A DNA stretch of 64,000 nucleotides from an uncultured Candidatus Saccharibacteria bacterium (GTDB taxonomy: Bacteria; Patescibacteriota; Minisyncoccia; Phycocordibacterales; UBA918), in NCBI GenBank assembly GCA_964552045.1, contig CAZKFF010000004.1:20368-84367 (forward strand), given 5' to 3'. The notes beneath the pieces are model-generated. The model had not been told where the DNA came from. It made no database searches and saw nothing but the letters and a program-made list of their open reading frames with translations. The translations under genes and the position numbers were made by a program. This document shows positions 37,301 through 54,964 of the stretch, in pieces. Positions within the stretch are counted from its first letter, which is position 1. Every line of letters starts with the position of its first letter.

Positions 37301-38375
37301 TCTTCTCTATGGGTTCCTCAGGCGAAGTCAGCGCCTCCTCGGTCTGAAGCGGTACCTCTTCCATAGATGGCTCAACAGATTCCGGCTCTTGCAGCATAGG
37401 GTCAGAAGCCGGAATTTCAGACGCCGCTTCACTCTCTGGTTCAGGTTCAGGTTCCTGCGCAGGTTCAGGTTCCTGCGTCTGTTCAACTGTTGGTTCCAGT
37501 TCTGCTTCGGGCTGTGCTTCCGCTTGCACGACTGCTGCTACCTCTTCTACCTCCGCATCATTCATGAATGGGAAAAATTCCGTTACCGTTCCGAGGAATG
37601 CAAACAGCGTCTCTGTTGCTTTTTTCAGCACTACGGGCTGCGACGTTTCATCAGCAGGAGCGGGAGTTTCTTCAGTCTCTGGTTCAGGTTCAGGTTCCTG
37701 CGCAGGTTCCGGCGTCTGTTCAACTGTTGGTTCCAGTTCTGCTTCGGGCTGTGCTTCCAGCTCTAGTGCCGCCGGTTCTTCTATCTGCACAGGCGAGTTC
37801 GTCGCCGCAGGCTCAGAAACCGGTTCCACAGTTGGAGTTGCTGTCTCGGCTGATGTGGTTGCAGTTGTCGTTGCGGTCGATTCTCCGGATGAGGATGCGC
37901 CGTTCGGAGGAGTCATCTCGGACTGTGCATCCTTCTGTGCCGCTTCGTCGGAAGGTAGCGGCACATGCGCGGAATTGTGCCGGGTGAATTCTTGGTACAG
38001 CGCCTCTTCATCAAGATCAGGAGAAAGCACCTGCTCGACATCGGTCCAAGTGCTGTTTGTCACTGAACCCGGATAGATATGCAGGGTGTTTTTAACGCCG
38101 AGCTGCGTGTCTCTGTCCTCCGCCTGAGAATATGCGCGATCAATGCTTAGACCACCGATTGCGATAACAAGCAAGAGGAGAAGTGCGCGAGATATGACCG
38201 TCTTCCACACTGATGAGAGATGTAGTTTTGTCGTTCCATGAGAAGGCTTCCCATTCTGAGAAACAACAAAACGCCCTGCAAAAGATTCCAGCGCTCTAAA
38301 TATGAATATATTAAATTCCCTCCTTGTTTTTTTTGAGAAAAATCTCATCGAGAACAAGCAGCAAAACACCCCCAA
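19323..38375 (-). CDS. Giant (6,350 aa) membrane-anchored modular surface protein. Residue numbers and approximate coordinates follow.
- N-terminal TM anchor: aa 61-78.
- Acidic Pro/Glu tandem linker.
- Phage tail-collar-like HxH repeat region: aa ~990-1320 (34416..35408).
- LQYG/YCFRMV domain: aa ~1380-1505.
- Two tandem FN3-like units: aa 1506-1906.
- WxGxxW 8-repeat propeller-like region: aa ~1940-2330.
- DUF2341-like modules: aa ~2640-2745, ~3660-3765, ~5596-5705.
- LamG/concanavalin-like modules.
- Three copies of a ~550-aa parallel beta-helix module: aa ~3140-3660, ~4180-4790, ~5040-5560.
- C-terminal ~260-aa Cys-containing shared domain: aa ~6085-6350 (19323..20123).
   Basis: Single uninterrupted ORF; residue count verified at 6350. 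The listed start is TTG (an in-frame ATG lies at 38348). Motif evidence:
- DUF2341 signatures (W..R.P.TI......T.FPV.V.L......DIR.T..DG.T.LP.EI.......A.IYF......S...TFYIYYGN) occur three times.
- LamG signature (...W.IFLDADG...FDG.MDEVRLS).
- Tail-collar-like HTHTATG...THSHLY, SNTHTHNITG, DNHAHSVS, SATHTHADIFG, GAHTHLVD...PPYLTVIY. Confidence 0.8.
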   Translation of the reverse strand: MGVFCCLFSMRFFSKKTRREFNIFIFRALESFAGRFVVSQNGKPSHGTTKLHLSSVWKTVISRALLLLLVIAIGGLSIDRAYSQAEDRDTQLGVKNTLHIYPGSVTNSTWTDVEQVLSPDLDEEALYQEFTRHNSAHVPLPSDEAAQKDAQSEMTPPNGASSSGESTATTTATTSAETATPTVEPVSEPAATNSPVQIEEPAALELEAQPEAELEPTVEQTPEPAQEPEPEPETEETPAPADETSQPVVLKKATETLFAFLGTVTEFFPFMNDAEVEEVAAVVQAEAQPEAELEPTVEQTQEPEPAQEPEPEPESEAASEIPASDPMLQEPESVEPSMEEVPLQTEEALTSPEEPIEKTPNTLQATSTEETISQDQATTTGDVLEESEAPAEPPSQYVFTLSDFSAPELKRGEFITGMQLRMSLAAQYEPKASSSAPVLEINYKTPSSTQQVGTIVIDGEVSNALNGGYFLFALPQIASIAELNDVEVEVVYKGDTEQLGGVYIDTAWLQIEVEHLDKELLHARLVRDLLRRLSDPSMHTLMSEDIDFTREELPHFSLKYTSQRNLAVRFFRDLFGRKLAEVEAVSFVHKDIGDVGITPEVSITDEGIINIQLEEEDRERLRPGEYLVEITINEGGATYTDTFSFQWGLLSINSNQTAYELGDTVEISMGALSQNGNTICDAALSLYIIDPQEVLSKVPVQASGLCNGNNVVDVPDYAAVFTPEVAGEHEMYLERIDADGTIAAHTIDTFMVEENLPFVLERKGPSRVYPLEQYPMEITLTAQEAWEGTLIEQVPSSFVITKTDAAISTKHDVQELSWDVSLEAGVSQSFAYTFDAPDISPYLYTVGSARLEGELPESMRTADETASSTATTTPASSPMPAGESTTTPSELPDLFEAGATTSAPLPVVETPQDTEQGTEEVPAAGMPQDTQGEEVPETSDALTEPEAEQSATTAPEIGSGAIPAPVLSEPQPMESVAATNMNSVVFEEHRQWQIASDATGNLIVFWNSGAAIPAGWTCLSCGSGTFYQRFPMGGDTYNTTGGATTHTHTATGVVNSSNTTNTENNGSGEISIPTHSHLYTPNISTVSNLPAYRQFRVIQSNSAGDPATIPAGAIMMFDDASLPTGWTRLSALDGRYPRGENSIANGGSNTHTHNITGNTTAASNVSTLNSRFGGSQVTGAADNHAHSVSSNTASINSEPPFIEVIFATAGIATSTPQGAIAMWSDEPPAQWIDRSSSPSDPFNGRFVKGATSYGTTGGSATHTHADIFGIVSSDATITDNARSGSSGNSGAHTHLVDVTNFSTANNLPPYLTVIYGKKLGAVPVYTQTGYLFYANENANTPSDPYPAGAADLLENEPITSEDEPLASGDALRIRMQLQVTNSTSTADSFKLQYGTTTALCTDISVWSDVGSATSSAAWRGYENAGVNDGDTLASATLASTTVLATYEENNPTASVPNPIGVDDYGEWDFVVQQNNAEAGTIYCFRMVQQDGTPLFAYSEYPQVMTNQAPNAPDLFKLFDNEKIGTTTPNFEFSAADEETDDLEYQIQIDNDYDFSSAVVDHNTVSNATLFQNLATPADKDPFTNGELIRYNSATALNNGTTYYWRVRARDPNGSNTWGSWATIQSFTVDTSVTVSTWFQTTQEQFETNTLLNVEAAVSDQMQILSPFATGTVYSDPITFEEGELGTAWGDFVFADTETSSDVKYSIQYNDNDTWTDIPDADLPGNSTGFDTSPVSLLGVDKTVYAEIRIAADLTDSGASPSIQSWSVDWDYLIETPTISEPFANEKVSTTTPTFEFTTTDPQDNDLIYQLQWSTSYDFSAPTTRTSDTNTGFTNVDSGADTSPFSSGDSIRFEVQAGDALSNGTTYWWRVRARDPLGSNTYSFYTTPRSFTVDTSVTVSTWFQTTQSQFDNNLLSGLYTQSGDTVTVATTSDESIVVYAEGTVTTPRYRRWSGTAWSTESSALNVGATINWIVTRSSPIENEYITGTLGSDGDVNLQVFKNGAWGNLEEISTSISNVDMRGFDIAYETNSGDAVAVACDGNADPSYHIWNGTSWSDEGDIDRTGTNACGWVRLISDPDSDEIIAIVRDILGSDYEAMVWDGSSWGNFVTWGAMSEDINEGIAASYEESGDQAVVAVSNGGAASFSWRAWNGSSWTGAASVALGDDFEWGSIAADVGSDDMALCYIDNDNDIGVVPWTGSGWTGRTELDTAGNSKTSRAVDCMFEVGGANDGEIMLAYSDTTAVRYRTYDGGWSGEATIAAISDASTVQLQRTGAQLIQLLAYDDVNDRYDYSGWNGTSWTTRQTLESNGSVGAAPFKEPFMIAVQNPGSSGTIIGQPLIDFNEGSGPYWQQMSWTDTTLDGSDILYQIEYYDGDSWELVPDSLLPGNSSGTSTGPIDLSGVLPASTYGQIRPVANLICNIGTCPVFSDWTITWAAGITVSGTALQYDEATNVASGNVAIAVNGVLQTGKTGTISNGTWSIANVNVAQGDVVTVFIDGASDSSEAVAVTAYDGVGNMSGLDLYAGHLVVGSDDAATVSNASLGLYDLTNDEDLFFDVNASNDLSVCASSGCAETELYIKAGNTYQPGTGGNATTFSFENNGTVSANGNTLRVGGSWENNATTNMATSTVIFTATSTQSSVPWYDAQWSHRLPLTIQSSQIDTSVTDFPVYVDLSDLDSTFFSNVNTNGGDIRITTADGQTELPREIVSIDTGAQTGEIYFQADSLSSAGDTTFYIYYGNSSASDYASNATNGSENVWNNDYEAVYHFDESPSASAPQYADSTGNSSGTAVNMEAGDRVAGIAGGAAEVDGVDERIETNFSQSLLNSTWSIFLDADGTQGACDGVMFSRGTGVNGMNAGACTDTSRIGYHWENLAATAWDFAGGAVYPTNEWYMASLVVEPTQATLYAHAQGGVTSGSNVQTHTLSTINNLDFGWDSFGVARSFDGTMDEVRLSSVSRTADWLDAEYRNISSPGTFYAVSASESFASSTSGLPYTLTDADGTLDFYTVTFGEGSGTSEWEIADSLDVDNALTVAYGTLARGSETITVAGNVTTQANGLWTGVGTTTFDGTGIATWSDNSTPKQNIGYAVVNGVSKVVQLGSNVEASSVTIGSDDTFDLSTSNRDIVVYGNWVNNNTFNPRNGDVTFSGTQPGQIVTAGGDNFYNLIFNGSGGSWSFTESTLGINNDLSIATGTVTFPTGTTTIAGSFTNSGGSFAHNNGSVLFNSSTAETLTFNGGTFTNALYDVRFQGSGSWSFTEAHATTSNEFRIVQGTVTLPSASLAVGGSFLNTGGTFAHNNGTVRLTGSGTHSIDTNAPFNSLAFTGSGSWSFVDASVTAQGSLTVTAGTVTLPSGTLTLGGSLSNSATLVHNSGTVLFNSNDAGETIVLGSSPLYNVTFNSGTGGWSINGNATTTNDFTLASAGVFTLASGQTLSVSGTFTNSAGGSATTWTGSTLALGGGSFALNTKTAGADGYGTLRVASTTHVSMWNSSSTAYTVDGSLYSQDHSGVDGDLYIWGSYERASGTEHWSYATDFDGTSLAGGSERQADIAFAAGSSATFSGGSLNILGTASATTTIHNQGSGSYALTVSGGTVNADHYQVRNTDASGFAFLGTPSITSLANGDFDLTVPASSISVAASVIDANPALQILNVRFGSAASSSPWLDPWDYRKSHVVQSASGAGTDYPIMMTIHYGSGTDSGDDVYLGSKGSADFSDLRFTSDDGQTLLPYWIESQTDGDQAVVWVNVSADLSSSDATIYVYYGNNSASSQSDGEATFTFFDDFSGASLDTSKWQTFNIDSYSQSNGILTATTTAKDPAKIIASEGGSGETGNNLAFRARFRPRVGANNDQRVGLSIKTSTANGQGYNYLLHNFSSFTPRAFLDDLVAWGPTHSEPWTLGTWYTEEIYHDGTSVLGRFDDGTWNSWARTGRTGYFALNTGGLSETVSNDWDFALIRKIVATEPSHGTWGSEESVNAFIPYNVSASGSPTSYWWFRQTSGDFDGEAFDDDTGDPGSIRWDDSSVALTLSGTVYADNGATPLTGGTCDGVSTPVRIVVEDGSTYDTSCSNVDGSWSMSGVAIVGDPTVTVFLNGASGGETAVTVTKTPTEDIGDLDLYAHRVITRHEDTASMTIADMVHDSTFDSDIIFTVATGTEPLLTVAPDNALFVWASTTFTPGGTVTLQSGGTGTDYDGSLYLANGASFIGNGTTTYTIGGTFTQSAGAVFSAASSSVLMSATTTGKAIDVALGETATFNQLRFSGIGGGWNINGDIAALDDIEVATGTVTGTGDISIPNGSFFGEGLVSLGGGTTTLEQSNTLGGSQGWTLYNLQLGNGTTIGTTTPAGTATTTIGGTLFIAVGHYLDAGASRFDLSGTGTVFVENGTFLEDQSTVRYSGGSATNLLSTTYYDLDLNAGAGAPTYTATGLGILVLHDLTVGGESATAATFDTHDTALGVNGDVVIRSNGTLIGSNSGLFTVAGSWDNDGTYTSSNGTVTFNGSGAINIAAGTSPFGNLTVNGGGNFTISEHATTTGAFMLASSTGAFTLASGQSLALGGSFTNALGGAATTWTGSTLRFVSGTNYEINAKTISDTYENFAVGTNTDIRMWNSSASAYVVDASGSLYSQDHAGVDGDLFIYGNYGGNGGTDHWSYATDFDGAVLGGGTERQAHVRFESGAGMNLLSGGLQVLGSASASTSIENQGSGTYSLLIGGSASTSWSYYAVEDINSAGLTFSGAPHVVTLSHGDFEIAQAGGSGITVGGTVIDINPAQTFTNNNFSTTTGISAFNVTATGTSVSSWRFTNHTGSLDGEEHDVDPDGDPGYIVWDNSAANITIAGNVYSDEGTTVSGVCDGTTNNITVRVAGLTSYAASCNATTGAYSVSGVTYSPGDSIVAYIDGETQKGATVTEDPVSNIGNMHIYENRVIVRHEGTDPLNIADMAVWDSSDDADIPFTAIDGSPDTLVLPANRKLIVWSGKEFEPDGNITLQGGGAGAAYDGTFEAYANAIVSFSGAQEHSIGGSFILGSNASFDAGLSTTTFTTTGAARTIDANSESFYNTVFSGSGSWSITDATFDVQNIFITDGVLTFPTGTTTVSGSFSNNGGSFVINGSTLVFDAATTGNILRAGGSNLEELIFNGVGGAWTMTDANATTTGSVTVQAGTLTLPSGAFAVGGDFRNTGGDIVHNTADLYFTNDTGASLLASSSDLYAVIFSGAGTFTMEDESLSLLDDLRIAQGSVLFASSTLAIGGSFDASGGLFDSATGTVLFNSADAGETIDPGNSNFYNVVLANAGGGWAITGNATATHNFSLSLASSFTQQSGTRLYVGNVFTNNVGGGATTWSGATLILDAGAGYSINTKLSDGDQYGTLIVGDDTDIRVWNSSADTTTVQPSASLYSQDHGGSDGALTIYGDFHVSTTTEYWSYATDFDGASLAGIERAVTVSIAGNATTTVDGGTLYMIGASGNSTTVQNQGSGTYAFAVSDGTFNALYYRYRDLNAEGLLFSGTPFITSLSQGDFELAVSGGSLITLSSATLDANASKVISGNRFATTTAITGTNVTLIGTTTNAWAFVSHTGNLAGEDYDDDGATACGSIRWNDSSCLLTQQTHYRWRHDDGGVDVPDSEWFNASWGARKRVRLENPDAATYTDAAVKLSVAYDAAMQGDFDDLRFTDASGTTTIPHFIERYTASADADIWVQVPSLAAEDITTLYMYFDNATASSTSSSADAFIAADDFEDGNITEYSGDTSLFNVGSSFAYGGSFGLDATAHESDKATDGIADTGLTVSQGQIIRYMQYVDTDAGNGDEVCTLFGVQSPVTSNQNYAICLEQFGVDRMSIVENAQNTDSSGTVLASSTVDFPTLGSGWYEVEIDWQTGGDMDVTLSKDGATAATASASDNTYTSGGIGFTFWFQNGGWDNYSARPHVDTEPTVYFGDKQVSGGASWAADLDESYAYTHGDIARLRVAVENSGLQITGQTFDIEYATKGAAPSCEAVSSASYAIVPPQSSCGSSPLCMQASSHLTDNGATTDLLFEVDGQFTSGKVVEDPSNTTAALTIDQDEYTELEYALTPTINASAPSYCLRVTDASDPLDTYLSVAELELRFDPIVTNVSLNGGAAIALVPGSTTTVYTTGTVTDLNGFDDLTHATATMYRSGVGAACTPDNNNCYVSAAPLCELSGCSGNSCSISCSADFYFHADATDAGSAYEGEEWLAAVEVSDQGGGIDIGSTPTTTQIELLTLHALDVDAAINYGPLAVSSTTGSYNPTTTVQNLGNVPIDIELEGTDLTDGGSSFIPASEQLFATSTFTYTACTSCSALSSTTATDLEVDLTKPTSSSSPVTDVVYWGIEIPYGVASNPHQGTNIFYAIGD
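32658..33859 (-). repeat. Internal tandem duplication (~810-bp period, two units) encoding FN3-like/ending-in-SFTVDTSVTVSTWFQTTQ modules of the giant protein.
   Basis: Protein residues 1506-1646 and 1776-1906 align. The DNA blocks ...gtctggaaccaggtagagaccgtaac.gacgt.tccaccgtgaagct... recur at ~32650-32710 and ~33440-33500. Confidence 0.65.
37437..37760 (-). repeat. Two ~80-bp copies (37437..37523 and 37680..37760) of an imperfect tandem DNA duplication with ~240-bp period, encoding the acidic linker AQPEAELEPTVEQT[PQ]EP..AQEPEPEPE inside the giant gene.
   Basis: Near-identical DNA blocks ggttcaggttcaggttcctgcgcaggttc...tgttcaactgttggttccagttctgcttcgggctgtgcttcc at ~37437-37523 and ~37680-37760. 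Confidence 0.7.
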
Positions 38376-38386
38376 TGAGCGTGCAT

Positions 38387-38433
38387 CGCTATAACAAATT
38401 ATAGCGCGTTAAACCTTGGTTTAACGCGCTATA
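38387..38433. promoter_or_regulatory. Palindromic array in the 78-bp gap upstream of the giant gene: cgctata-acaaat-tatagcg (7-bp stem hairpin) overlapping a 34-bp near-perfect palindrome tatagcgcgttaaacc-tt-ggtttaacgcgctata. Three TATAGCG/CGCTATA half-sites. Candidate operator and/or bidirectional terminator for 38454..40004.
   Basis: Read directly from the sequence at 38387-38433. Position between the stop of the cohesin gene and the start of the giant gene. Confidence 0.35.
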
Positions 38434-38453
38434 CTGTGGATTCAAATCCTCTT

Positions 38454-40004
38454 CTATTTCAATATTTTCTTCACATCATTGATCTCCTTTTCGATGAGTG
38501 TTTCAGAGACCTCGAGCGCCTGATTGAGTCCCTCGACAGCCTCCTTTTCCTTGGCAGAAAGACGCGGCCGTTTGGTGATGTTATTCACCTGATCGTAGAT
38601 CTCATCGCGCAGCGCAGAGAATATTTTTTCCATCTGATCCTGTATCTCGCGGGTCTCTTTGCGGAGCCGTTCCTCCTTCTTACTGAACTGCTTACGTTCA
38701 AAGATGAGGTAACCGAACTGCAGAAGTATGGTAAGGATAAGCAGTCCTATCAGAATGTTCGTACCAGTGAGAAATGACCAGAAGCTCACTTCTTCAACAG
38801 TCTCCGCTGGCTTGACCCATCCTGCGGTGATCAGAACCGGCGATGAGCTCTCTGTCTTATTGCCCGCCTTATCGAAAGCGATCACCTTCACTGTGTATGT
38901 GCCGTCCTCAAGCTCCTTGAGCATGTAGCCGAGTTTTGCTTCGTCCGGCGTGACAACTACCGGTTCTTTGTCCGCAACAGTGAGCTCGTAATGATCAATG
39001 CCCGAAGTCACATCTTTTGCTTCAAATACCAGAAGTGGGAATGAGGAAGGCGAGGTGCCTGCCTGAATATGAATGGCAAACGGTTCAGGTGCTGTCGTGT
39101 CGATCTGGATCTTGCGGTTGGTAATTGCGCCCCAGCCTACCTGATTCTTGAATTGCACGCTGAGATACTGAACGCCGTCTGCAAGATTCTCAGCACTGAC
39201 AACAAACTCCTCTACAGGCGGGTCGATGATCGTGCTCGGTTCGTTTTCCGAAGATGTCGCGATCTCGGCGGCGAGCGCATTGACATCGAACGGCAGTTCC
39301 CAGGTGAACACTCCGTCAACTTTGTTGTACCACAGTTCGGGGTCAAGGAAGGTGACCGATCCAACCTCAGGAGCACGAGGAGGATCGCCGAATGCCAATG
39401 CAGCATTATTGTCTTCGTCGGACGTCTCCGGTTCCGCAGTCTCTTCAGGCTCTTCCGCTGGTGTTGGTGTCTGCGTGGTTGCGGCCGCTACAGTAAAGCT
39501 CGCTCCATTCTTTCCTTCGAGCACATCGGTGCCGCGGCCGTCAGCTGCAAGTGCGGAAGCAGTGCCGAATGCTATAGCTCCCGTACCGTTTGACAGTGTT
39601 CTGAACGTTACAGTGAGCAGATTGGAGCGCGATGAGAACGGCGTCGGGCTACCGCCGCCGAATGAAATGGTTCCTGCAGTATTCGAAAATGTGGGTTCAG
39701 TGGTCCAGAGCGAAAAGACCGATCCGGTTTTGGACACGTTGACCACAGAAAGAACCGACTTATCGAAGGTCAGCTCTGCTTCAACCGCATTGACACTGTC
39801 GCCAGACGGATCAATCTGAATGGTCGTTGTGAACGTCTGCCCCACTGAGTAGGAGCCTGACGCGGGTGATATCTGCAGATTTGCAGCAAAAGCAGTACGC
39901 GTGAAAAGAAGCAGCAGTACGAGAAAAAGCGCCGCCTTGAGAGTAAGCAACAGCAATGGTATTCGATTTTCAAAAAATGAACTCTGGGTTGAAAGAACGC
40001 TCAT
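38454..40004 (-). CDS. Cohesin-like domain surface protein with a C-terminal TM anchor plus cytoplasmic coiled-coil tail (paralog of 6400..8160).
   Basis: 516 aa. Signal peptide (…FAANLQISP). Module SGSYSVGQTFTTTIQIDPSGDSVNAVEAELTFDKSVLSVVNVSKTGSVFSLWTTEPTFSNTAGTISFGGGSPT...GTGAIAFGTASALAADGRGTDVL. TM ILIGLLILTILLQFGYLIF, then KQFSKKEERLRKETREIQDQMEKI... coiled coil. Confidence 0.6.
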   Translation of the reverse strand: MSVLSTQSSFFENRIPLLLLTLKAALFLVLLLLFTRTAFAANLQISPASGSYSVGQTFTTTIQIDPSGDSVNAVEAELTFDKSVLSVVNVSKTGSVFSLWTTEPTFSNTAGTISFGGGSPTPFSSRSNLLTVTFRTLSNGTGAIAFGTASALAADGRGTDVLEGKNGASFTVAAATTQTPTPAEEPEETAEPETSDEDNNAALAFGDPPRAPEVGSVTFLDPELWYNKVDGVFTWELPFDVNALAAEIATSSENEPSTIIDPPVEEFVVSAENLADGVQYLSVQFKNQVGWGAITNRKIQIDTTAPEPFAIHIQAGTSPSSFPLLVFEAKDVTSGIDHYELTVADKEPVVVTPDEAKLGYMLKELEDGTYTVKVIAFDKAGNKTESSSPVLITAGWVKPAETVEEVSFWSFLTGTNILIGLLILTILLQFGYLIFERKQFSKKEERLRKETREIQDQMEKIFSALRDEIYDQVNNITKRPRLSAKEKEAVEGLNQALEVSETLIEKEINDVKKILK

Positions 40005-40030
40005 ACTCTCCTTTGCCTTACCACCTATTA

Positions 40031-40495
40031 TTACACACGCTGTGCTCCTTTCGCCTTCGTTATCTTCAGTTTGACCTTTTCTTTCTCCTCCGGTTTCAAA
40101 AGCGGAAGCACGAGGATCAGCACGCCGTTCTTTATCTTTGCGTCAGCATGCTCGATGTCGACGCTCTCAGGCAGAATTATCCTGCGGTAGAAATCACCCC
40201 ACACGCATTCTTCCGTGAAGAATGCACCGTCGGGTTTCTTCTTGGGAAAAGCGATGTGTTCAGGTCGCAGGCGGCGGCCTTCAATAAGCACAATATCGGC
40301 ATCACCTTCGATCGAGACCTGAATATCCGACATATCGGCACCGGCTGCATGTGCATACACGACGATGAGGTTGTCAGTCTGAAATACATCGACATCAAGC
40401 TGCACTATTTTGTTGAGCGCAGTTTCCTCATCGCTTGAGAGCAATTTTTCTTCTGAGCGGACACCTCTGCCTTTGAGTCGTTGCAAGAAGGACAT
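40031..40495 (-). CDS. Small heat-shock protein, Hsp20/alpha-crystallin family.
   Basis: Alpha-crystallin domain pattern DVFQTDNLIVVYAHAAG...DIQVSIEGDADIVLIEGRR...YRRIILPESVDIEHADAKIKNGVLILVLP. The track ORF extends to 40537, but the start is probably the MSFLQRLKG Met at 40495. Confidence 0.75.
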   Translation of the reverse strand: MSFLQRLKGRGVRSEEKLLSSDEETALNKIVQLDVDVFQTDNLIVVYAHAAGADMSDIQVSIEGDADIVLIEGRRLRPEHIAFPKKKPDGAFFTEECVWGDFYRRIILPESVDIEHADAKIKNGVLILVLPLLKPEEKEKVKLKITKAKGAQRV

Positions 40496-40596
40496 ATAAC
40501 AAATTATATAGCGTGCGTGAGCTTTATTATGTATCACTTACCCACAGCCACACCGATCCTGTCCGCAGGTATTCGAGCATGAGTCGGTCACGACCC

Positions 40597-42507
40597 TTAG
40601 CCCGTCCAGTTGAACAGCATGATCGAAAAGTCAGTCAGACTTACTGTTCCATCTCTGTTGATGTCTGCGGGCGGATTGGAATCTCCTCCATTGCCGCCCC
40701 ACCAGAACAGCAGTATGGAGAAGTCGGTGAGATTGATCTTGCCGTCGGTATTGAGGTCAGCACTGAGAGGCACATCGGCATTCTGTCCAACCCCGTAGAA
40801 GGTATAGCCGGAGAAGTTCGTCTCGAGGCCAAGTCCGGATTGCTGTTTCGCTTTTGCGCGCGCTTTGTAGGTACCGGTTGAAAAGCCATTGGTATCGACG
40901 GCCACCGACCATGCGCCGCTACTGTTTGAAGTTGTGGTAAAGGTCTTCCGCGAGGCGGCGCTTTTGTCGTTCTGATTCTCCAGGGTTATCTCCGCATTTG
41001 GAATTGAGTAGCCACTGAGCGTCAACGTTTCGCCGGGCGTCACTGGATCAGGTGATGCCTTGACCGACGGCATGATATTGATGTTCGACAGATTGGAAGT
41101 TCGTCCTCCGGTAACCGTAAACGACGTGCTGAAGGTTGATGATTTCACTTTGTCGCTTCCCATTGCGTAGACCCCGAATGTGTAGACACCGCGCGCGATC
41201 TCTTCGAGCGTCACTGAGTAGCTTCCGTCATTGCCGGCCCGAGTCGATTCAGCCTCTGAGCCGTCAACAAGTACATAGACGGTACTTCCAGGGAACGCAT
41301 ACCCGCGAATGATGACCTCAGCATCGCCGCTCCGATATGGACCGTCTTCATTTTCGAATCCGCCGCCGCTTTGGTCCTCATCATCTTCTCCCCTGCTGCC
41401 TCCCGAGCCGCCGCCCGAGCCGCCACTTCCCGAACTGCTGCCGCCGGATCCGCTCCCGCCGGAGTTGCTGCCGCCGCCGGTGCCTGAGGAACCGCTTCCG
41501 GTACCCTCATTTCCTGATCCCGTTCCCTCACCCTCTGTGTCTCCTTCTGTATTGGGAATTCCTTCCGGCGGTTCGAGCGAAGTGAACACGATCTCGTAGT
41601 CGTCAATGTTGAAGTTGCCTTCATCGTCAATACAGCGGACGTAGTATGCGTTGACCGTACCGGTAGCAACCGCTTTTTCCTCCGCGTGCACGAGGAGACC
41701 GGTGCTTGAAAATACATCGGTCATATCATGAAAATCAACGCCTGGAGTCCGGCTCATGCGGCACACAGCAAGCTCGTCGGTTTCAAGCGAAAGTTCAACA
41801 TTGAGCACGGTACCGCTGACCTCCCCCGTTGGAGCGCCGTTGAAACGGAATGGCGGAACCTCCTCGGTTGTATCTGCAGGGCCGACACCCACGGCATCGA
41901 CAACTGCGATATTGAATTGGGCATAGGCTGGCTCTGCACCGCCGCCCACGGTAACGGCAAACCGGTATGTCCCCGGAGTACCGCTGTTTTTGATCGGCTC
42001 GACATCACCAGCTATAGTCGTGGTTCCGGTTGTGGTGCTGTATGAAACGCTCTCCTGAAGAGCACCAGACGTATGGTTGCCGATACGCATCTCGATAGCG
42101 GAACCGGATGGTATGCCGGTTGTCGGATTGAGATTGTACCGTATTGCCCCCGGCGATCCCGGAGTTATGACAACCTCATCGACGTTCGGAGCAAGAACCG
42201 CCCCTGCCGAGCGAAGTGCTCCGTTGACGTACAGTTCCACATTCCGCTCCGCAAATGTAGAGGTCGCAAGGATTTCGAATCCGGACGCCGGCTCTACCTC
42301 AATATAACCGCCGGGCGATATGTCGGTTCCGAGTTTGAACTCAAGCGTGTGATTCGCATACCCCGATGGCCGCGAGTCAGAAATAGTATCTTTATAGGAA
42401 AGAATATTGAGCGCCTTGCTTTCAAACGGAAAAGCGGCAAACAGACACGACCCCAGCACAAGCAACGCAAGTGCACAGGCAGCTTTGCGCACCAAGGAAA
42501 CTTTCAT
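40597..42507 (-). CDS. Secreted dockerin protein: N-terminal Ig-like domains, a Gly/Ser-rich linker (GGSNSGGSGSGGSSSGSGGSGGGSGGS), Ig-like domains, and a C-terminal type I dockerin (DLNTDGKINLTDFSILLFWW / DINRDGTVSLTDFSIMLFNW).
   Basis: 636 aa. Signal peptide (…LFAAFPFESKALN). Duplicated dockerin repeat nearly identical in pattern to 10957..12102. The middle region is paralogous. Confidence 0.7.
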   Translation of the reverse strand: MKVSLVRKAACALALLVLGSCLFAAFPFESKALNILSYKDTISDSRPSGYANHTLEFKLGTDISPGGYIEVEPASGFEILATSTFAERNVELYVNGALRSAGAVLAPNVDEVVITPGSPGAIRYNLNPTTGIPSGSAIEMRIGNHTSGALQESVSYSTTTGTTTIAGDVEPIKNSGTPGTYRFAVTVGGGAEPAYAQFNIAVVDAVGVGPADTTEEVPPFRFNGAPTGEVSGTVLNVELSLETDELAVCRMSRTPGVDFHDMTDVFSSTGLLVHAEEKAVATGTVNAYYVRCIDDEGNFNIDDYEIVFTSLEPPEGIPNTEGDTEGEGTGSGNEGTGSGSSGTGGGSNSGGSGSGGSSSGSGGSGGGSGGSRGEDDEDQSGGGFENEDGPYRSGDAEVIIRGYAFPGSTVYVLVDGSEAESTRAGNDGSYSVTLEEIARGVYTFGVYAMGSDKVKSSTFSTSFTVTGGRTSNLSNINIMPSVKASPDPVTPGETLTLSGYSIPNAEITLENQNDKSAASRKTFTTTSNSSGAWSVAVDTNGFSTGTYKARAKAKQQSGLGLETNFSGYTFYGVGQNADVPLSADLNTDGKINLTDFSILLFWWGGNGGDSNPPADINRDGTVSLTDFSIMLFNWTG

Positions 42508-42561: not shown

Positions 42562-43368
42562 TCACAAAACGCACCTGAATCCGATTGCGACTCCGGAAGC
42601 GGTCGGGAGCGTCTGAGCATGCACTGCATAGATGCCGGCATCGAGTCCGCTGCCGTAGAATCCACCGCGAAGCACGCCGAACGCTCCATCATTTGATGAC
42701 CACAGATAATCCTGATAGAACAATTCCGACGGAGAGCTACCGGTAAGGACTGCCATGCCAGAAGCATCGACCTGGGTGACATAGCCTGAGTGTGGCAACT
42801 CTCTTCCTGCATACATGCCCTGGAGCACGTCATCCGTAGTCCACTCCCACACATTTCCAATGCTGTCATATGCACCCACAGCTGAAATACATTCCTCATG
42901 GGTGCCGGTTGGTGAGGCGCCGCTTGCATCGATGTTACATGTGTGCGCATCATCAGGAGTGCCTACCGAAGAGAGATACCACTCATCGCTGCGAGGCAGC
43001 CGCTTCCCTGCGCGCATGCAGGCGGTCAGAGCTTGCTCACGGGTTATATACCGCCACGCGTCGGCGTCCGGCTTCGACTCCGCCTCGCATTGTGCGGTAT
43101 CCATATTCTCTCTGGTCTGCAACTCGTTTTGGGGATTCTTCTGCGGACACGAAGCCGCAGCGGACGCCTCGTACATGTCAACACACCGGTATGTGATTGC
43201 CATGGGCACTTCGACCATACCAGCAGGGCATGCACTGTCGTCTCCGGCTTTGATCACCTGACCCAACAGCGTCGAACGTGAACCCTGCAGCGTGTCGGCC
43301 GCATCGATCCCGAGCGCGGTTATGAGAACAGCGCCACAGATAACCGCCCCGACTTTGAGCAATTTCAT
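42562..43368 (-). CDS. Secreted FGE-sulfatase (SUMF1/formylglycine-generating-enzyme-like) domain protein, copy 1.
   Basis: 268 aa. Signal peptide. C-terminal family signature GVLRGGFYGSGLDAGIYAVH...GFRCVL plus conserved Cys/Trp-rich core (…CPQ.PQNE..T.EN...A.CE......W..I....A...C..AGKRLP...EWY...G). Confidence 0.7.
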   Translation of the reverse strand: MKLLKVGAVICGAVLITALGIDAADTLQGSRSTLLGQVIKAGDDSACPAGMVEVPMAITYRCVDMYEASAAASCPQKNPQNELQTRENMDTAQCEAESKPDADAWRYITREQALTACMRAGKRLPRSDEWYLSSVGTPDDAHTCNIDASGASPTGTHEECISAVGAYDSIGNVWEWTTDDVLQGMYAGRELPHSGYVTQVDASGMAVLTGSSPSELFYQDYLWSSNDGAFGVLRGGFYGSGLDAGIYAVHAQTLPTASGVAIGFRCVL

Positions 43369-43465
43369 GCTCTAAGTATACACGCATGTGCGCTGTAGCT
43401 TACATATTTATCCAAAACGTGTGCGGAGTCACACGCACATTTTCTCGCGGTACGTGCAAAGTTCT

Positions 43466-44269
43466 TTACATATCCTTCACGCAGCGAAAACCGATTCCCG
43501 AGGTCTTGAAGTCGAGCGGCACAGACATGTTCTGCGCAAATATACCTGCGTCTTCGCCGCCTCCATAAAAGCCGCCGCGTATGACGCCGCGAACCCCATC
43601 AGAACTCGTCCACGCGTAGTCCTTCCCGAATTCAGCAACAGCCTCCGGTGCAGTCTGAAGCACCACGCCATTGGTATCGACAAGTGAGACATACCCGCTC
43701 GCAGGAAGCGTGCGGTCTGCGTAGCTGCCGTCAACAACTTCTTCATCGATCCACTCCCATACATTGCCGATCATGTCATGCACTCCAGAAGGAGTGACGC
43801 ATGCGGCTTTGCCTGTTGGCGCCGCAGAAGACTCGTGCATCACGCATGAGGTAGCGTCGCCGAATCCGCTTGCGGTCTTATACCATTCCTCGTTCGTCGG
43901 CAGGCGCTTGCCTGCGCGCGCACACAGCTGCTGCGCCTGCGTCAGCGAGACGAACCTCCAGGGCATTGCGTCTTCCTTTGACTCCGGGTGACAATCTGCA
44001 GCATTGGCATTGTCCTGCGTTTCGATCTCATTCTGGGGATCCTGATGCGGACACTCAGAAGACGGCGACGCTTCGTATACATCCACGCACAGGCTGTGGC
44101 TTCCGAACAAAAGCTGCACCGCACCATCTCCGCACACTGAGGCACTTTCAAGCACCAGGCCTGATAAGTTGCCTTCCACACCACGCAGCACGTCGCTTGC
44201 CTGTATGGCAGCTGTAGAAAGTATCACCGCCGCGAGTCCAACAAGCGCTGACTTTTGGAATGTGTTCAT
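43466..44269 (-). CDS. Secreted FGE-sulfatase (SUMF1-like) domain protein, copy 2. Tandem paralog of 42562..43368.
   Basis: 267 aa. Signal peptide. GVIRGGFYGGGEDAGIF...GIGFRCVKDM. Collinear with copy 1. A terminator-like hairpin (gtgtgcggagtcacacgcac + T-run on the minus reading) separates the two genes at ~43418-43438. Confidence 0.7.
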   Translation of the reverse strand: MNTFQKSALVGLAAVILSTAAIQASDVLRGVEGNLSGLVLESASVCGDGAVQLLFGSHSLCVDVYEASPSSECPHQDPQNEIETQDNANAADCHPESKEDAMPWRFVSLTQAQQLCARAGKRLPTNEEWYKTASGFGDATSCVMHESSAAPTGKAACVTPSGVHDMIGNVWEWIDEEVVDGSYADRTLPASGYVSLVDTNGVVLQTAPEAVAEFGKDYAWTSSDGVRGVIRGGFYGGGEDAGIFAQNMSVPLDFKTSGIGFRCVKDM

Positions 44270-44667: not shown

Positions 44668-45741
44668 CTATGCGAACAGAGCGAGAAGAACGATGAGGAA
44701 AAGTGCTGTGACAGCAAGCATGACCGCCACCACAAGAAGCAACGCTGACACGCCTCCCCCTCGGCGGCGTCGCGCAATACGGCGCGCACCAGCATATCCC
44801 CGGATGGCCCTGCGTATATAGAGCTTCACGGATACATATGCGACAAGAAGCAGAAACGCGAGTACGCCGGCAGCAGGAAGTATGATGTTCATCGGAAGAA
44901 TCCAGAATGAAGCAGTGCTTGAAATGGTTGCCTGTCTTCCCTGATCTCCATAGACCATGCTTAAGATAGCCTCGTACCTGCCGAAACCGGGACCCTCATG
45001 TTCCCAGACGATCTCGAATGTGCGCTCCGCATTCGGAAATACTCCCGCCTTCTTTTCGTTCATGGTAAGCATCGCTACACGCTTGCCGAACATGTTGTAT
45101 ACCTCAAGCGGACCGACAGGCCGGACCAGAACATTACCCTTGTTCTCGATGCGTGCGGAAAAATCGATCTCCGGCTTGCCATAGATGAAATTACCGGTTG
45201 AGAACGAACGTATCTGTGCATTCTCCACTGCGTCCCCGGCAACACGGATGCTGATGATGTTGGCAACCTCATAACCGACCGATGCACCGGTTGAACGCAG
45301 GCGGGGCGGATCCATCGAGACGAACACACCGCCGAAGTGGCTGCCCGGCGTCGCATTGTCCGGAACAGAAAGGGTTACTGTTATTTCTTTCTCTTCTCCC
45401 GGGTTAAGGGTGAGCTCGGTCGTATCGAGCGTGATCCATTCGGTGAGCTCATAGCCGGTTTTCTCTGCGTTCTCCTCGGCAAAGATCGGCACTCCGGCGC
45501 CTTCAACCCCGACAATATCGCGGGTAAACAGATAATACGTCTGCGTGGTGCCGCTGAGGTTGGTGATACCGACCTTGTGCTCCTGAACTTCGCCGGGATT
45601 TGCCGGACCTTCAATGGTCGCCGGTCTGATACCGATACCCGTGCCCGTTGACTGTGCCTGCGCATACAGCGGAAACAAGGAACCGATGCTGAACAATATC
45701 AAGAAAAAAAGAGAACGCTTGAAGGTGAGTGAAAACGCCAT
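44668..45741 (-). CDS. Cell-surface protein with signal peptide, two beta-rich domains and a C-terminal TM anchor plus Arg-rich tail (DUF916/DUF3324-like architecture).
   Basis: 357 aa. Signal peptide (…LYAQAQSTG). C-terminal ILPAAGVLAFLLLVAYVSVKLYIRRAIRG...RRRRGG. Architecture parallels 12106..13065. Confidence 0.5.
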   Translation of the reverse strand: MAFSLTFKRSLFFLILFSIGSLFPLYAQAQSTGTGIGIRPATIEGPANPGEVQEHKVGITNLSGTTQTYYLFTRDIVGVEGAGVPIFAEENAEKTGYELTEWITLDTTELTLNPGEEKEITVTLSVPDNATPGSHFGGVFVSMDPPRLRSTGASVGYEVANIISIRVAGDAVENAQIRSFSTGNFIYGKPEIDFSARIENKGNVLVRPVGPLEVYNMFGKRVAMLTMNEKKAGVFPNAERTFEIVWEHEGPGFGRYEAILSMVYGDQGRQATISSTASFWILPMNIILPAAGVLAFLLLVAYVSVKLYIRRAIRGYAGARRIARRRRGGGVSALLLVVAVMLAVTALFLIVLLALFA

Positions 45742-48631: not shown

Positions 48632-48669
48632 GGCAATAGTATATCAATCTTATGATATCGACATATCCT

Positions 48670-54920: not shown

Positions 54921-54964
54921 ATGCTTTTAATAGTTACATTTTTATAAGCGTCTTGAAGCCTTCC

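What the first reader, a model, noticed from the sequence alone, without database searches (positions are those of the whole stretch)
38454..42507. Second cohesin/dockerin pair flanking an Hsp20, directly upstream of the giant surface protein gene
38454..40004 is a close paralog of 6400..8160 (cohesin-like module, TM helix, charged coiled-coil tail). 40597..42507 is a paralog of the 10957 dockerin protein. An Hsp20 gene sits between them (40031..40495), and the 19-kb giant gene follows.

Duplication of the cohesin/dockerin pair at two loci suggests a modular display system with several cargo proteins. The Hsp20 may act as a dedicated chaperone.
Basis: seen in the sequence. Interest (0 to 1): 0.6.

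Follow-up and report, generated by a model that had tools for sequence, protein, structure and literature searches.

The report
Membrane-anchored cohesin–dockerin surface system in CPR bacteria
An uncultivated ultra-small (CPR/Paceibacteria) bacterium carries two ancient copies of a gene set in which membrane-anchored "socket" (cohesin) proteins probably hold secreted pilin-like "plug" (dockerin) proteins on the cell surface; one copy is always co-located with a small heat-shock gene and a giant surface-protein gene, and I found no paper describing the arrangement.

Summary
38454..40004 and 6400..8160 are paralogs (35% over 366 aa plus the tail). 40597..42507 and 10957..12102 share a 40%-identical C-terminal Ig-Ig-dockerin module. 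An Hsp20 gene lies between the first pair and a 6350-aa gene follows. The cohesin passes Pfam's threshold, and its predicted fold matches solved type I cohesins (TM 0.76). The dockerins pass Pfam's threshold with intact Ca2+ loops.

The order dockerin protein, Hsp20, cohesin-TM, giant gene holds in about 80 species-level Patescibacteria MAGs: 61/62, 76/76 and 71/71 testable loci.

New findings:
- The window has four cohesin-like and three dockerin modules.
- The dockerin protein's N-terminal half is homologous to neighbouring pilin-like proteins, which are sub-threshold relatives of the CPR 'Pam' pilins.
- The cohesin protein's most conserved part is an 80-aa cytoplasmic tail.
- Cohesin-less orthologs exist in loci that lack the dockerin and giant genes.
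- hsp20 and the cohesin gene look like one operon.

The most likely function is Ca2+-dependent tethering of pilin-like surface proteins to the membrane. Binding is inferred, not shown. The 'dedicated chaperone' role for Hsp20 is unproven. This is a new variant of non-cellulosomal cohesin–dockerin systems.

The parts
40597..42507 (-). doc2: secreted 636-aa protein. It has a signal peptide, a pilin-like N-terminal half (aa 26-311), a disordered G/S-rich linker (aa 313-393), two Ig-like domains, and a C-terminal dockerin (aa 580-636 = nt 40600..40770).
   Evidence: Pfam Dockerin_1 scores 29.5 bits against a threshold of 22.9. It has two F-hand loops, DLNTDGKINLTD and DINRDGTVSLTD. The dockerin is 63% invariant across 20 orthologs. 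hhalign against the p461 family gives 98.8% probability, E 1.4e-16. In the AF2 model the N-domain has pLDDT about 90, but the dockerin is not modelled.
40538..40547 (-). Conserved upstream element CTGTGGGTAA. It lies about 29 nt before the TATAAT (40503..40508), which ends 7 nt before the hsp20 ATG. The layout is that of a leaderless-type promoter.
   Evidence: The sequence is. The element plus spacing is kept in 52 of 77 orthologous loci under a strict pattern. There is only one copy in the window.
40031..40495 (-). hsp20: a 154-aa cytoplasmic small heat-shock protein with an alpha-crystallin domain and no signal peptide.
   Evidence: Pfam HSP20 scores 44.4 bits. It is adjacent to the cohesin gene in 76/76 loci, with median identity 78%. 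The N-terminus MSFLQRLKG is invariant or nearly so.
38454..40004 (-). coh2: a 516-aa type-I membrane protein. It has a signal peptide, a cohesin module (aa 40-176 = nt 39477..39887), an acidic linker, two Ig/FnIII-like stalk domains, a TM helix (aa 406-431) and a cytoplasmic helical tail (aa 436-516 = nt 38457..38699).
   Evidence: Pfam Cohesin scores 30.6 bits. AF2 gives pLDDT 84-92 for the cohesin. The top 36 Foldseek PDB hits are all cohesins; the best is 6kgf_C, E 2.9e-10, TMt 0.76. The tail is 74% invariant, against 36% for the cohesin. A Shine-Dalgarno-like aaggagag sits shortly before the ATG, which lies 26 nt after the hsp20 stop.
38400..38442 (-). AATCCACA motif followed by a perfect 15-bp hairpin directly after the coh2 stop. 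The 3' arm of the hairpin runs into a TATAAT (38398..38403) in front of the giant gene. This is a putative terminator overlapping a promoter.
   Evidence: A hairpin is present in 68 of 79 loci at z < -3, with a median stem of 14 bp whose inner sequence differs between species. ATCC[AC]CA...TATA[AC]T occurs in 59 of 79 loci.
19323..38375 (-). Giant surface protein gene (6350 aa as listed; the likely start is the ATG at 38348). It has an N-terminal membrane anchor, DUF2341 domains and an Ig_Rha78A_N domain. It has no cohesin, dockerin or LPXTG.
   Evidence: A homolog lies downstream of coh2 in 71/71 testable loci.
6400..8160 (-). coh1: paralog of coh2. It has a cohesin, Ig-like domains, a TM helix and the same type of tail. 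The database ortholog starts at the ATG at 8151.
   Evidence: Its cluster is syntenic in relatives.
10957..12102 (-). doc1: a secreted 381-aa protein with a Cys-rich DUF4215 repeat, then the same Ig-Ig-dockerin module as doc2.
8153..9223 (-). p356: a third cohesin-like protein with a C-terminal TM helix. Its gene overlaps the listed TTG start of coh1 by 8 nt.
   Evidence: hhalign against the coh2 family gives 98.2% probability, E 3e-14.
4951..5721 (-). p256: a cohesin-like module (aa 52-175) plus a divergent dockerin (aa 204-250) in one protein, which is an adaptor-like architecture.
   Evidence: hhalign gives 95.8% probability, E 8e-9. Dockerin_1 scores 19.7 bits, below the threshold. Two F-hand loops are present. 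The in-house profiles agree.
45940..47058 (-). p461 (about 372 aa from the ATG at 47058): a secreted pilin-like protein. It is 52% identical over 383 aa to p378 (9422..10558), and its N-terminal part is homologous to that of doc2.
   Evidence: NCBIfam CPR_Pam_pilin_C matches end to end, but below the cut-off: 19.4 and 24.7 bits against 55.
9422..10558 (-). p378: the pilin-like paralog in cluster 1.
44668..45741 (-). WxLIP-like two-domain protein with a C-terminal TM helix. Its distant paralog is 12106..13065.
   Evidence: Pfam WxLIP_PGBD scores 32.4 bits against a threshold of 27.3. The family profile hits EfmWxLIP1 in PDB 9i25, E 5.5e-5. Paralogy is shown.

Best explanation
The window comes from an uncultivated Patescibacteria (CPR) genome of the Paceibacteria type. 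The finding is part of a deeply conserved cell-envelope gene island.

The proteins:
- coh2 (38454..40004) is a type-I membrane protein. Outside the cell it carries a genuine cohesin module on a two-domain Ig/FnIII-like stalk. It has one TM helix and a nearly invariant 80-aa helical tail in the cytoplasm.
- doc2 (40597..42507) is secreted. Its N-terminal half is homologous to the neighbouring pilin-like proteins. Its C-terminus is a type-I-like dockerin with two intact Ca2+ loops.

Most likely mechanism: the dockerin plugs non-covalently, in a Ca2+-dependent way, into the membrane-anchored cohesin. This would tether a pilin-like or Ig-like surface structure to the cytoplasmic membrane of a cell that, as is generally assumed for CPR bacteria (background, not tested here), has no outer membrane.

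The second cluster is an ancient paralogous copy of the same apparatus. It holds doc1, coh1, the cohesin-like p356, and p256, which has both a cohesin-like and a dockerin module. It also has its own pilin-like and WxLIP-like paralogs.

hsp20 and coh2 form a two-gene operon. It has a conserved leaderless-type promoter, a Shine-Dalgarno sequence before coh2, and a conserved hairpin after coh2. The giant gene has its own -10 element overlapping that hairpin.

Shown:
- module identities, paralogy, synteny, conservation pattern and operon signals.

Inferred:
- that these cohesins bind these dockerins;
- the membrane topology (signal peptide plus positive-inside rule);
- any role of Hsp20 or of the giant protein in the same apparatus.
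For: - Cohesin identity: Pfam scores are above threshold. The predicted fold matches solved cohesins: the top 36 PDB hits are all cohesins, TMt up to 0.78, rmsd 2.2-2.7 A.
- Dockerin identity: Pfam scores are above threshold in doc1 and doc2. Two canonical loops are present, and most of their D/N Ca2+ ligand positions are invariant across 20 orthologs.
- Conservation: the dockerin is the most conserved part of doc2, at 63% invariant.
- Paralogy.
- Further modules: four cohesin-like and three dockerin modules, including a cohesin-plus-dockerin adaptor.
- Synteny in about 80 species-level MAGs whose UmuC is only 45% identical (median): dockerin protein upstream in 61/62, Hsp20 adjacent in 76/76, giant homolog downstream in 71/71.
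- Cluster 1 is also syntenic in relatives.
- Co-occurrence: three loci with cohesin-less orthologs lack the dockerin gene, the pilin-like gene and the giant gene.
- doc2's N-terminal half is homologous to the pilin-like p461/p378 family.
- Operon signals.
Against: - No binding test of any kind was possible. AF2 did not fold the dockerin (pLDDT about 27).
- None of the dockerin proteins carries an enzyme domain, so there is no analogy to cellulosome cargo.
- The most conserved part of coh2 is the cytoplasmic tail, not the cohesin.
- Orthologs without a cohesin exist. The protein's core job may therefore be something other than docking.
- One locus (L033) has coh2 but no dockerin gene upstream.
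- The dockerins of doc1 and doc2 are nearly identical in their helices, so pairing specificity between the two clusters is unclear.
Confidence: 0.55

Rival explanations
1. This is a Pam-like pilus with a cohesin-dockerin anchor. The two clusters would be divergent Paceibacteria versions of the CPR Pam pilus operon. In this reading p461/p378 are the filament pilins and the WxLIP-like TM proteins act as membrane-anchored assembly chaperones. coh1 and coh2 would be PamR-like membrane anchors (two FnIII-like domains plus a TM helix) that acquired a cohesin. doc2 would be the basal pilin-like subunit, fixed to the anchor by its dockerin instead of by strand insertion.
For: - NCBIfam CPR_Pam_pilin_C matches p378 and p461 end to end (profile positions 2-148 of 148), at E 2e-5 and 9e-4.
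- doc2 aa 26-311 is homologous to the p461 family.
- The coh2 stalk has fn3/Big_13-type domains followed by a C-terminal TM helix.
- The cohesin-less orthologs have the architecture described for PamR in 10.64898/2026.03.03.709456.
- The interdomain linker of doc2 is conserved but unfolded in the monomer model.
Against: - The Pam pilin scores (24.7 and 19.4 bits) are far below the curated cut-off of 55.
- No PapD/FimC-like hit was found for the WxLIP-like proteins; they match EfmWxLIP1 instead.
- No Pam structure was found in the PDB for comparison.
- The Pam paper reports pilins mainly in Saccharimonadia and Microgenomatia, and does not mention cohesin or dockerin.
- Donor-strand exchange was not tested.
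Confidence: 0.25
2. The modules are real but do not pair with each other. The surface cohesins would bind something else, such as host-cell or other-cell dockerins, glycans or envelope polymers. The dockerins would act as Ca2+-stabilised end-caps or bind other partners. Gene proximity would then reflect only a shared 'surface protein island'.
For: - By my recollection of the literature (for example a 2009 survey by Peer et al., not retrieved here), cohesin- and dockerin-like modules are widespread in non-cellulolytic organisms and most have no demonstrated partner.
- The whole 64-kb window is dense in secreted proteins, so co-location alone is weak evidence.
- Cohesin-less orthologs exist.
Against: - Both module types occur in both paralogous clusters, and one protein carries both.
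- The dockerin is the most conserved segment of doc2.
- The dockerin gene is absent from the three cohesin-less loci examined.
Confidence: 0.15
3. Hsp20 is simply the organism's general stress sHSP. Its place next to coh2 is inherited from an older umuDC - hsp20 - tail-protein arrangement, and it has no dedicated function for the cohesin protein, the dockerin protein or the giant protein.
For: - L086 has the order umuC - hsp20 - cohesin-less ortholog, with no dockerin or giant gene.
- L087 and L089 have the ortholog directly after umuC without hsp20.
- The paralogous cluster 1 has no hsp20.
- hsp20 has its own promoter with a specific conserved upstream element, as expected for a stress gene.
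- It has a canonical alpha-crystallin domain.
Against: - Adjacency holds in 76/76 loci, with gaps within about 30 nt, while other junctions of the island gain and lose genes.
- No terminator lies between hsp20 and coh2.
- Hsp20 is unusually conserved: 78% median identity against 45% for UmuC.
- The only other strongly conserved cytoplasmic element in the locus is the coh2 tail.
Confidence: 0.5

Closest known systems
Cellulosomal anchoring scaffoldins and type I cohesin-dockerin pairs (e.g. C. thermocellum OlpA/OlpC, C. acetobutylicum CohA2-Doc0917, C. cellulolyticum Coh-Doc)
   Same: - The cohesin module passes the Pfam threshold and its predicted fold superposes on these structures (TMt 0.73-0.78).
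- The dockerin is a duplicated Ca2+-binding F-hand segment at the extreme C-terminus of secreted proteins.
- One protein combines a cohesin and a dockerin, as adaptor scaffoldins do.
   Different: - There is no glycoside hydrolase, CBM or other enzyme on any dockerin protein.
- Each protein has one cohesin, not a multi-cohesin scaffoldin.
- By my recollection, cellulosomal anchors use SLH domains or sortase. Here the anchor is a C-terminal TM helix plus a conserved cytoplasmic tail.
- The host is a CPR bacterium; a relative's apparently complete genome is about 1 Mb.
Non-cellulosomal cohesin/dockerin modules (e.g. Archaeoglobus fulgidus cohesin 2xdh; Clostridium perfringens GH33 cohesin 2vo8)
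   Same: These are cohesin and dockerin modules outside any cellulose-degrading context. Both structures are among the fold matches (ranks 12 and 25).
   Different: Here the modules sit in two conserved multi-gene clusters with pilin-like, WxLIP-like and giant surface proteins, and the cohesins are integral membrane proteins. I found no paper linking cohesin or dockerin to Parcubacteria, Paceibacteria or Kaiserbacteria.
Pam pilus system of CPR bacteria (Troman et al. 2026, bioRxiv 10.64898/2026.03.03.709456)
   Same: - It is specific to CPR bacteria.
- It has secreted two-domain Ig-like pilins, TM-anchored assembly factors and a TM-anchored two-FnIII anchor protein (PamR), in a cell without an outer membrane.
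- p378 and p461 match the NCBIfam Pam pilin C-domain end to end.
   Different: - The scores are well below the family cut-off.
- The Pam paper describes no cohesin, dockerin, Hsp20 or giant gene.
- The class differs: Paceibacteria here, against Saccharimonadia and Microgenomatia there.
- The putative chaperone here is WxLIP-like rather than demonstrably PapD-like.
WxL / Csc cell-surface complex gene clusters of Lactobacillales (WxLIP = DUF916/DUF3324 proteins; PMC10599100)
   Same: A TM-anchored WxLIP_PGBD-type protein is encoded in a cluster of secreted surface proteins.
   Different: No WxL-domain protein and no LPXTG partner were found in the clusters. The link between components would be cohesin-dockerin rather than WxL.
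Small heat-shock proteins (Hsp20/alpha-crystallin family)
   Same: It has a canonical alpha-crystallin domain and a C-terminal L-K-I motif that resembles the I-x-I motif of sHSPs (my reading of the sequence). It has no signal peptide.
   Different: It is fixed in an operon with a surface-anchor gene across about 80 species. It is also much more conserved than the neighbouring UmuC.

Membership tests
Cohesin (Pfam PF00963) | HMM score at or above the gathering threshold (24.1 bits) | tested here: met
   coh2 scores 30.6 bits and coh1 39.2 bits. p356 and p256 do not reach Pfam, but they match the coh2-family profile: hhalign 98.2% and 95.8%.
Cohesin (Pfam PF00963) | Nine-stranded beta-sandwich (jelly-roll) fold superposable on solved cohesins | tested here: met
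   AF2 gives pLDDT 84-92 for aa 41-175. The 36 best PDB matches are all cohesins, with TMt 0.73-0.78 and rmsd 2.2-2.7 A for type I cohesins.
Cohesin (Pfam PF00963) | Binds a cognate dockerin | not testable with these tools
   No complex prediction or experiment was available.
Dockerin type I (Pfam PF00404) | HMM score at or above the gathering threshold (22.9 bits) | tested here: met
   doc2 and doc1 each score 29.5 bits. p256 scores 19.7 bits, below the threshold.
Dockerin type I (Pfam PF00404) | Two tandem F-hand segments of about 22 residues, with Ca2+-ligand D/N at loop positions 1, 3, 5, 9 and 12 | tested here: met
   The two loops are DLNTDGKINLTD and DINRDGTVSLTD. D584, N586, D588, N592, D595, D615, N617, D619 and D626 are invariant in 20 orthologs.
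Dockerin type I (Pfam PF00404) | Folded three-helix dockerin structure | tested here: inconclusive
   AF2 left aa 579-636 at pLDDT about 27, using a 20-sequence alignment.
Cellulosome | Dockerin-bearing carbohydrate-active enzymes, and a scaffoldin with several cohesins and a CBM | tested here: not met
   No GH or CBM domain is present in any dockerin or cohesin protein, and each protein has one cohesin. The doc2 model is a chain of Ig-like domains.
Cellulosome | Cell-surface anchoring through SLH domains or a sortase signal | tested here: not met
   coh1, coh2 and p356 end in a TM helix. coh1 and coh2 also have a cytoplasmic tail. No SLH hit and no LPXTG were found.
Small heat-shock protein (Pfam PF00011) | Alpha-crystallin domain HMM score at or above the threshold (20.8 bits) | tested here: met
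   It scores 44.4 bits over aa 39-142.
Small heat-shock protein (Pfam PF00011) | Holdase chaperone activity | not testable with these tools
   None available.
CPR Pam pilus system | Pilin C-terminal domain model NF058581 at or above its cut-off (55 bits) | tested here: not met
   p378 scores 24.7 bits (E 2e-5) and p461 19.4 bits (E 9e-4). Both cover the whole profile.
CPR Pam pilus system | TM-anchored PapD/FimC-like chaperones (PamC/D) | tested here: inconclusive
   The TM-anchored two-domain proteins at 44668..45741 and 12106..13065 match WxLIP (Pfam, and PDB 9i25) rather than PapD by sequence. No structure model could be made.
CPR Pam pilus system | RbmA-like anchor with two FnIII domains and a C-terminal TM helix (PamR) | tested here: inconclusive
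   The coh2 stalk has weak fn3/Big_13 hits followed by a TM helix. The cohesin-less orthologs have just this architecture. No direct comparison with PamR was possible.
CPR Pam pilus system | Donor-strand exchange between pilins | not testable with these tools
WxL / Csc surface complex cluster | WxLIP (DUF916) protein together with WxL-domain proteins | tested here: not met
   WxLIP_PGBD scores 32.4 bits against a threshold of 27.3. No WxL domain was found in any scanned protein of the window.

The most novel reading that the evidence does not exclude
The island encodes an attachment organelle of Paceibacteria. In this reading a Pam-like donor-strand filament, possibly together with the giant adhesin, is fastened to the cell by a cohesin-dockerin joint. 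The transmembrane anchor that holds the joint has an invariant cytoplasmic tail that couples the surface structure to a cytoplasmic partner. The co-transcribed, unusually conserved Hsp20 is the obvious candidate for that partner. This would be a new use of the cohesin-dockerin joint, as a pilus or adhesin anchor with an intracellular connection, in bacteria whose host-attachment machinery is largely unknown.
Probability: 0.2. Interest if true: 0.8.

Novelty: new variant of a known kind. Interest (0 to 1): 0.6.

Why it matters
How CPR/Patescibacteria cells build their surface and attach to other cells is a central open question, and nearly all of their surface proteins are unannotated.

This analysis gives a concrete, testable module map for a gene island conserved in at least 80 species. 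It contains genuine cohesins on transmembrane stalks, dockerins on pilin-like proteins, an adaptor carrying both modules, and fixed neighbours (Hsp20 and a giant protein).

If the cohesin-dockerin pairing holds, it would extend this joint from cellulosome assembly to envelope and pilus anchoring in ultra-small bacteria without an outer membrane. It would also provide handles (recombinant modules, antibodies, tags) for studying uncultivated Paceibacteria.

Tried and rejected
- **Shared 14-mer.** An exact 14-mer, TATAATTTGTTATA, precedes both hsp20 and the giant gene. It looked like a shared operator. It is not conserved as such beyond the closest relative. Only the -10-like TATAAT and separate upstream elements are conserved.
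- **Rfam and tRNA scans** of the window found nothing.
- **PDB sequence searches.** The coh2-family profile found no cohesin by sequence; only the fold search did. The p461-family profile found nothing.
- **Giant protein modules.** I scanned it for dockerin loops, LPXTG and cohesin- or dockerin-like modules. None were found, so it is not a dockerin cargo.
- **FGE substrate motif.** I searched for C/S-x-P-x-R motifs that could be substrates of the two FGE-sulfatase-like proteins. There was no convincing site.
- **Dockerin model.** AF2 did not fold the dockerin, so no structural confirmation was possible.
- **doc2 as an enzyme.** I rejected this. The model is all Ig-like beta-sandwich, and the PDB matches are generic multi-Ig proteins.
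- **JGI label 'TatA'** on coh1 orthologs. I judged it spurious; it reflects a TM helix followed by an amphipathic helix.
- **Literature searches** for cohesin or dockerin in Patescibacteria, Parcubacteria or Paceibacteria returned nothing relevant.

Full report
**Observation**

All genes of the window lie on the - strand.
- 38454..40004 encodes a 516-aa protein. It has a signal peptide, a Pfam cohesin (30.6 bits, threshold 24.1), Ig/fn3-like hits, a TM helix near residue 406 and a charged helical tail.
- It aligns with the 6400..8160 product at 35% identity over 366 aa (E 2e-67), and again over the TM and tail region at 25% over 185 aa.
- 40597..42507 (636 aa) and 10957..12102 (381 aa) share a 40%-identical C-terminal block of 244 aa, ending in a Pfam dockerin (29.5 bits each, threshold 22.9). 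Their N-terminal halves are unrelated.
- 40031..40495 is an Hsp20 (44.4 bits). The next gene downstream is the 6350-aa ORF 19323..38375.

'Close paralog' overstates 35% identity, and the dockerin paralogy covers only the C-terminal module.

**Are the modules real?**
- An AlphaFold2 model built on 14 orthologs gives pLDDT 84-92 for residues 41-175.
- Its 36 best Foldseek matches in the PDB are all cohesins. The closest are type I cohesins: 6kgf_C at E 2.9e-10, TMt 0.76, rmsd 2.2 A, and also 1g1k and 4dh2. The non-cellulosomal A. fulgidus cohesin 2xdh is also among them.
- The dockerins have two F-hand loops each, DLNTDGKINLTD and DINRDGTVSLTD in doc2. Most of their D/N ligand positions are invariant in 20 orthologs.
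- The dockerin itself was not folded by AF2 (pLDDT about 27). Its identification therefore rests on sequence.

**Organism and conservation**
- The coh2 product has hundreds of full-length homologs at 64-100% identity.
- A scan of one genome per species returned 80 loci. Nearly all are labelled Patescibacteria or CPR, mostly Paceibacteria, Kaiserbacteria or Nomurabacteria, with some inconsistent labels.
- tblastn of the window's proteins against these loci shows the order umuC - pilin-like p461 - WxLIP-like - p130 - (0-2 FGE-like genes) - dockerin protein - Hsp20 - cohesin-TM - giant ORF.
- Counted on the loci with enough flank: Hsp20 is adjacent in 76/76, a giant-protein homolog follows in 71/71, and the dockerin protein is upstream in 61/62.
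- Median identities are Hsp20 78%, coh2 64%, doc2 C-terminus 65%, UmuC 45% and giant N-terminus 35%. The genomes are therefore well diverged.
- A 1.08-Mb contig (apparently a complete genome) shows the same order, with a FIST gene inserted between the dockerin gene and hsp20.
- coh1 is an equally conserved family (57-83% identity) found on the same contigs as coh2 orthologs. The duplication therefore predates this clade.
- Its cluster is syntenic too: ABC/MacB - 617 aa - 314 aa - DUF4215/dockerin - 381 aa - 336 aa - cohesin - 224 aa - 256 aa - 549 aa - about 2000 aa.

**More than a pair**

All-against-all BLASTP within the window, with profile comparisons, gave the following.
- p356 (8153..9223) is a third cohesin-like protein with a TM anchor.
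- p256 (4951..5721) has a cohesin-like module and a divergent dockerin in one chain.
- The clusters also share pilin-like proteins: p461 and p378 are 52% identical over 383 aa.
- They share WxLIP-like TM-anchored proteins (44668..45741 and 12106..13065).
- The C-terminal domain of the giant protein recurs in p618.
- A second large ORF (at least 976 aa) runs off the window start after cluster 1.
- The giant protein has no cohesin, dockerin or LPXTG.

**What is the dockerin protein?**
- Its model is a chain of beta-sandwich domains with a disordered G/S linker, and the PDB matches are generic multi-Ig proteins. It is not an enzyme.
- Profile-profile comparison shows that residues 26-311 are homologous to the p461/p378 family (98.8%, E 1.4e-16). 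The shared region includes the mature N-terminal motif xDTxSDSxPxxxSNHTxxF.
- NCBIfam's model 'CPR_Pam_pilin_C' matches p378 and p461 over its whole length, but far below the cut-off: 24.7 and 19.4 bits against 55.
- The Pam pilus was described in 2026 in a Saccharimonadia parasite (10.64898/2026.03.03.709456). It has two-domain Ig-like pilins joined by donor-strand exchange, TM-anchored PapD-like chaperones, and a TM-anchored two-FnIII anchor called PamR.
- That paper mentions neither cohesin, dockerin, Hsp20 nor Paceibacteria. The Pam link is a lead, not a membership.

**What is the core of the cohesin protein?**
- Within 14 orthologs the cytoplasmic tail is 74% invariant, against 36% for the cohesin.
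- A profile of the two tails, searched against 1.84 billion representative proteins, found 392 proteins. In all those listed the tail is C-terminal. They fall into length classes matching coh2, coh1 and a class of about 320-370 aa.
- Members of the short class are 48-49% identical to coh2 residues 209-516 and have their own signal peptide, but no cohesin.
- Their loci read umuC - hsp20 - ortholog (L086), or umuC - ortholog (L087, L089). None has a dockerin gene, a pilin-like gene or a giant gene.
- The stalk-TM-tail protein next to umuC is therefore the common core of all these loci. In the loci examined, the cohesin, the dockerin protein, the pilin-like genes and the giant gene are present or absent together.
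- This fits cohesin-dockerin pairing. It also shows that docking is not the protein's only constraint.

**Operon structure**
- Upstream of hsp20 lies CTGTGGGTAA - N29 - TATAAT - 7 nt - ATG, with no Shine-Dalgarno sequence.
- The element, spacing and -10 are kept in most orthologous loci. The 10-mer occurs once in the window.
- coh2 follows 26 nt after the hsp20 stop, with a good Shine-Dalgarno sequence and no terminator between them.
- After the coh2 stop come AATCCACA and a perfect 15-bp hairpin. The 3' arm of the hairpin runs into a TATAAT before the giant gene.
- 68 of 79 loci have a hairpin here at z < -3, with stems whose inner sequence differs between species.
- I read this as a two-gene hsp20-coh2 operon whose terminator overlaps the giant gene's promoter. 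This is inferred from sequence only.

**Mechanism**

The best-supported reading (confidence about 0.55) is as follows.
- TM-anchored cohesins hold dockerin-ended, pilin-like or Ig-like proteins on the cell surface through the Ca2+-dependent cohesin-dockerin joint.
- The apparatus exists in two ancient paralogous copies, and one adaptor protein carries both modules.
- The invariant cytoplasmic tail implies an additional, unknown intracellular interaction.

A more specific version (about 0.25) is that these are Pam-like pili whose basal subunit is fastened to a PamR-like anchor by the cohesin-dockerin joint.

For Hsp20, conserved co-transcription argues for a link. Against a dedicated role stand its absence from the paralogous cluster, its presence beside a cohesin-less ortholog without a giant gene, and its own stress-type promoter. 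I put a dedicated role at no more than even odds.

**Comparison and novelty**
- The modules belong to the cohesin and dockerin families.
- The system is not a cellulosome. It has no enzymes or CBMs, no multi-cohesin scaffoldin, and no SLH or sortase anchoring.
- It is closest to the poorly understood non-cellulosomal cohesin-dockerin systems.
- It differs from them in its TM anchoring with a conserved cytoplasmic tail, its pilin-like dockerin proteins, its fixed association with Hsp20 and a giant gene, and its CPR host.
- I found no paper describing it.
- I rate it a new variant of a known kind, with interest 0.6.

Noticed in passing
window 40503..40547 (- strand): There is a conserved hsp20 promoter architecture: TGTG[GT][GA]TA[AT] - about 28-29 nt - TATAAT - about 7 nt - ATG. 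This implies a leaderless mRNA. In several species the upstream element is a palindrome (TGTGGGTAAnnCCACA/TCACA), as if it were an operator for a dimeric regulator centred near -43. No known heat-shock operator matches it.
   Followed up: partly
window 38398..38442 (- strand): AATCCACA is the reverse complement of the core of the hsp20 upstream element. It is followed by a 15-bp perfect hairpin whose 3' arm forms part of a TATAAT before the giant gene. The hairpin is present in 68 of 79 species, and the inner stem sequence differs between them. It may be a terminator overlapping a promoter, or a shared regulatory site for the hsp20-coh2 operon and the giant gene.
   Followed up: partly
window 38390..38403 and 40495..40508: The exact 14-mer TATAATTTGTTATA occurs only at these two places in 64 kb: immediately before the hsp20 ATG and before the giant gene (0.1 expected by chance). 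It is not conserved as a 14-mer in other species.
   Followed up: yes
window 38348..38385: The giant gene probably starts at the ATG at 38348 (MRFFSKK...), not at the listed TTG at 38375. A 13-codon ORF starting at the ATG at 38385 ends in an ATGA overlap with that start, so it could be a coupled upstream ORF.
   Followed up: no
window 45940..47325: The listed 461-aa ORF (TTG start) is probably about 372 aa, starting at the ATG at 47058. Orthologs are 362-378 aa and align from there.
   Followed up: yes
window 13169..15025 and 19323..20050: The last 230 aa or so of the giant protein are 31% identical to the C-terminus of the 618-aa protein of cluster 1. That protein's N-terminus has a faint TadE/G-like (pseudopilin-like) hit.
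   Followed up: no
window 2..2932 (- strand): A large ORF (at least 976 aa) starts near 2932 and runs off the window start. Relatives have a protein of about 2000 aa at this position, so the second cohesin/dockerin cluster is also followed by a very large surface protein.
   Followed up: partly
window 42562..44269: Two paralogous secreted FGE-sulfatase-like proteins (44% identical) lie just upstream of the dockerin gene. They are present in only 28 of 54 related loci. No C/S-x-P-x-R substrate motif was found in the neighbouring surface proteins.
   Followed up: partly
window 15089..17622: A MacB-type ABC transporter (an FtsX/MacB_PCD permease plus an ABC ATPase with a C-terminal extension of about 200 aa) sits between the giant gene and cluster 1, and is syntenic in relatives. 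It might export or process the surface proteins.
   Followed up: no
window 47393..49116; loci L086, L087, L089: umuD/umuC (S24 peptidase plus a Y-family polymerase) flank the island. In lineages whose coh2 ortholog lacks the cohesin, that gene lies directly after umuC (with hsp20 between them in L086). The whole surface island therefore appears to be inserted into, or deleted from, this junction.
   Followed up: partly
window 53050..63679: A separate Gram-positive-type pilus or adhesin cluster is present: a sortase, two SpaA-like prealbumin-fold proteins, a 1128-aa DUF11 protein, and then an ECF sigma factor with a putative 3-TM anti-sigma protein.
   Followed up: no
loci L004-L082; proteins P0130, P0156, P0204, P0240: Public labels are inconsistent. 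Many of these MAGs are titled 'Saccharibacteria', and single ones 'Legionellaceae', 'Acidimicrobiales' or 'Azotimanducaceae', although the locus is the same Paceibacteria-type island. JGI names some coh1 orthologs 'TatA', which looks spurious.
   Followed up: no
locus L033: This is the only locus, of the 62 testable, where the dockerin gene is missing upstream of hsp20-coh2. There an FGE-like gene abuts hsp20, although coh2 keeps its cohesin.
   Followed up: no
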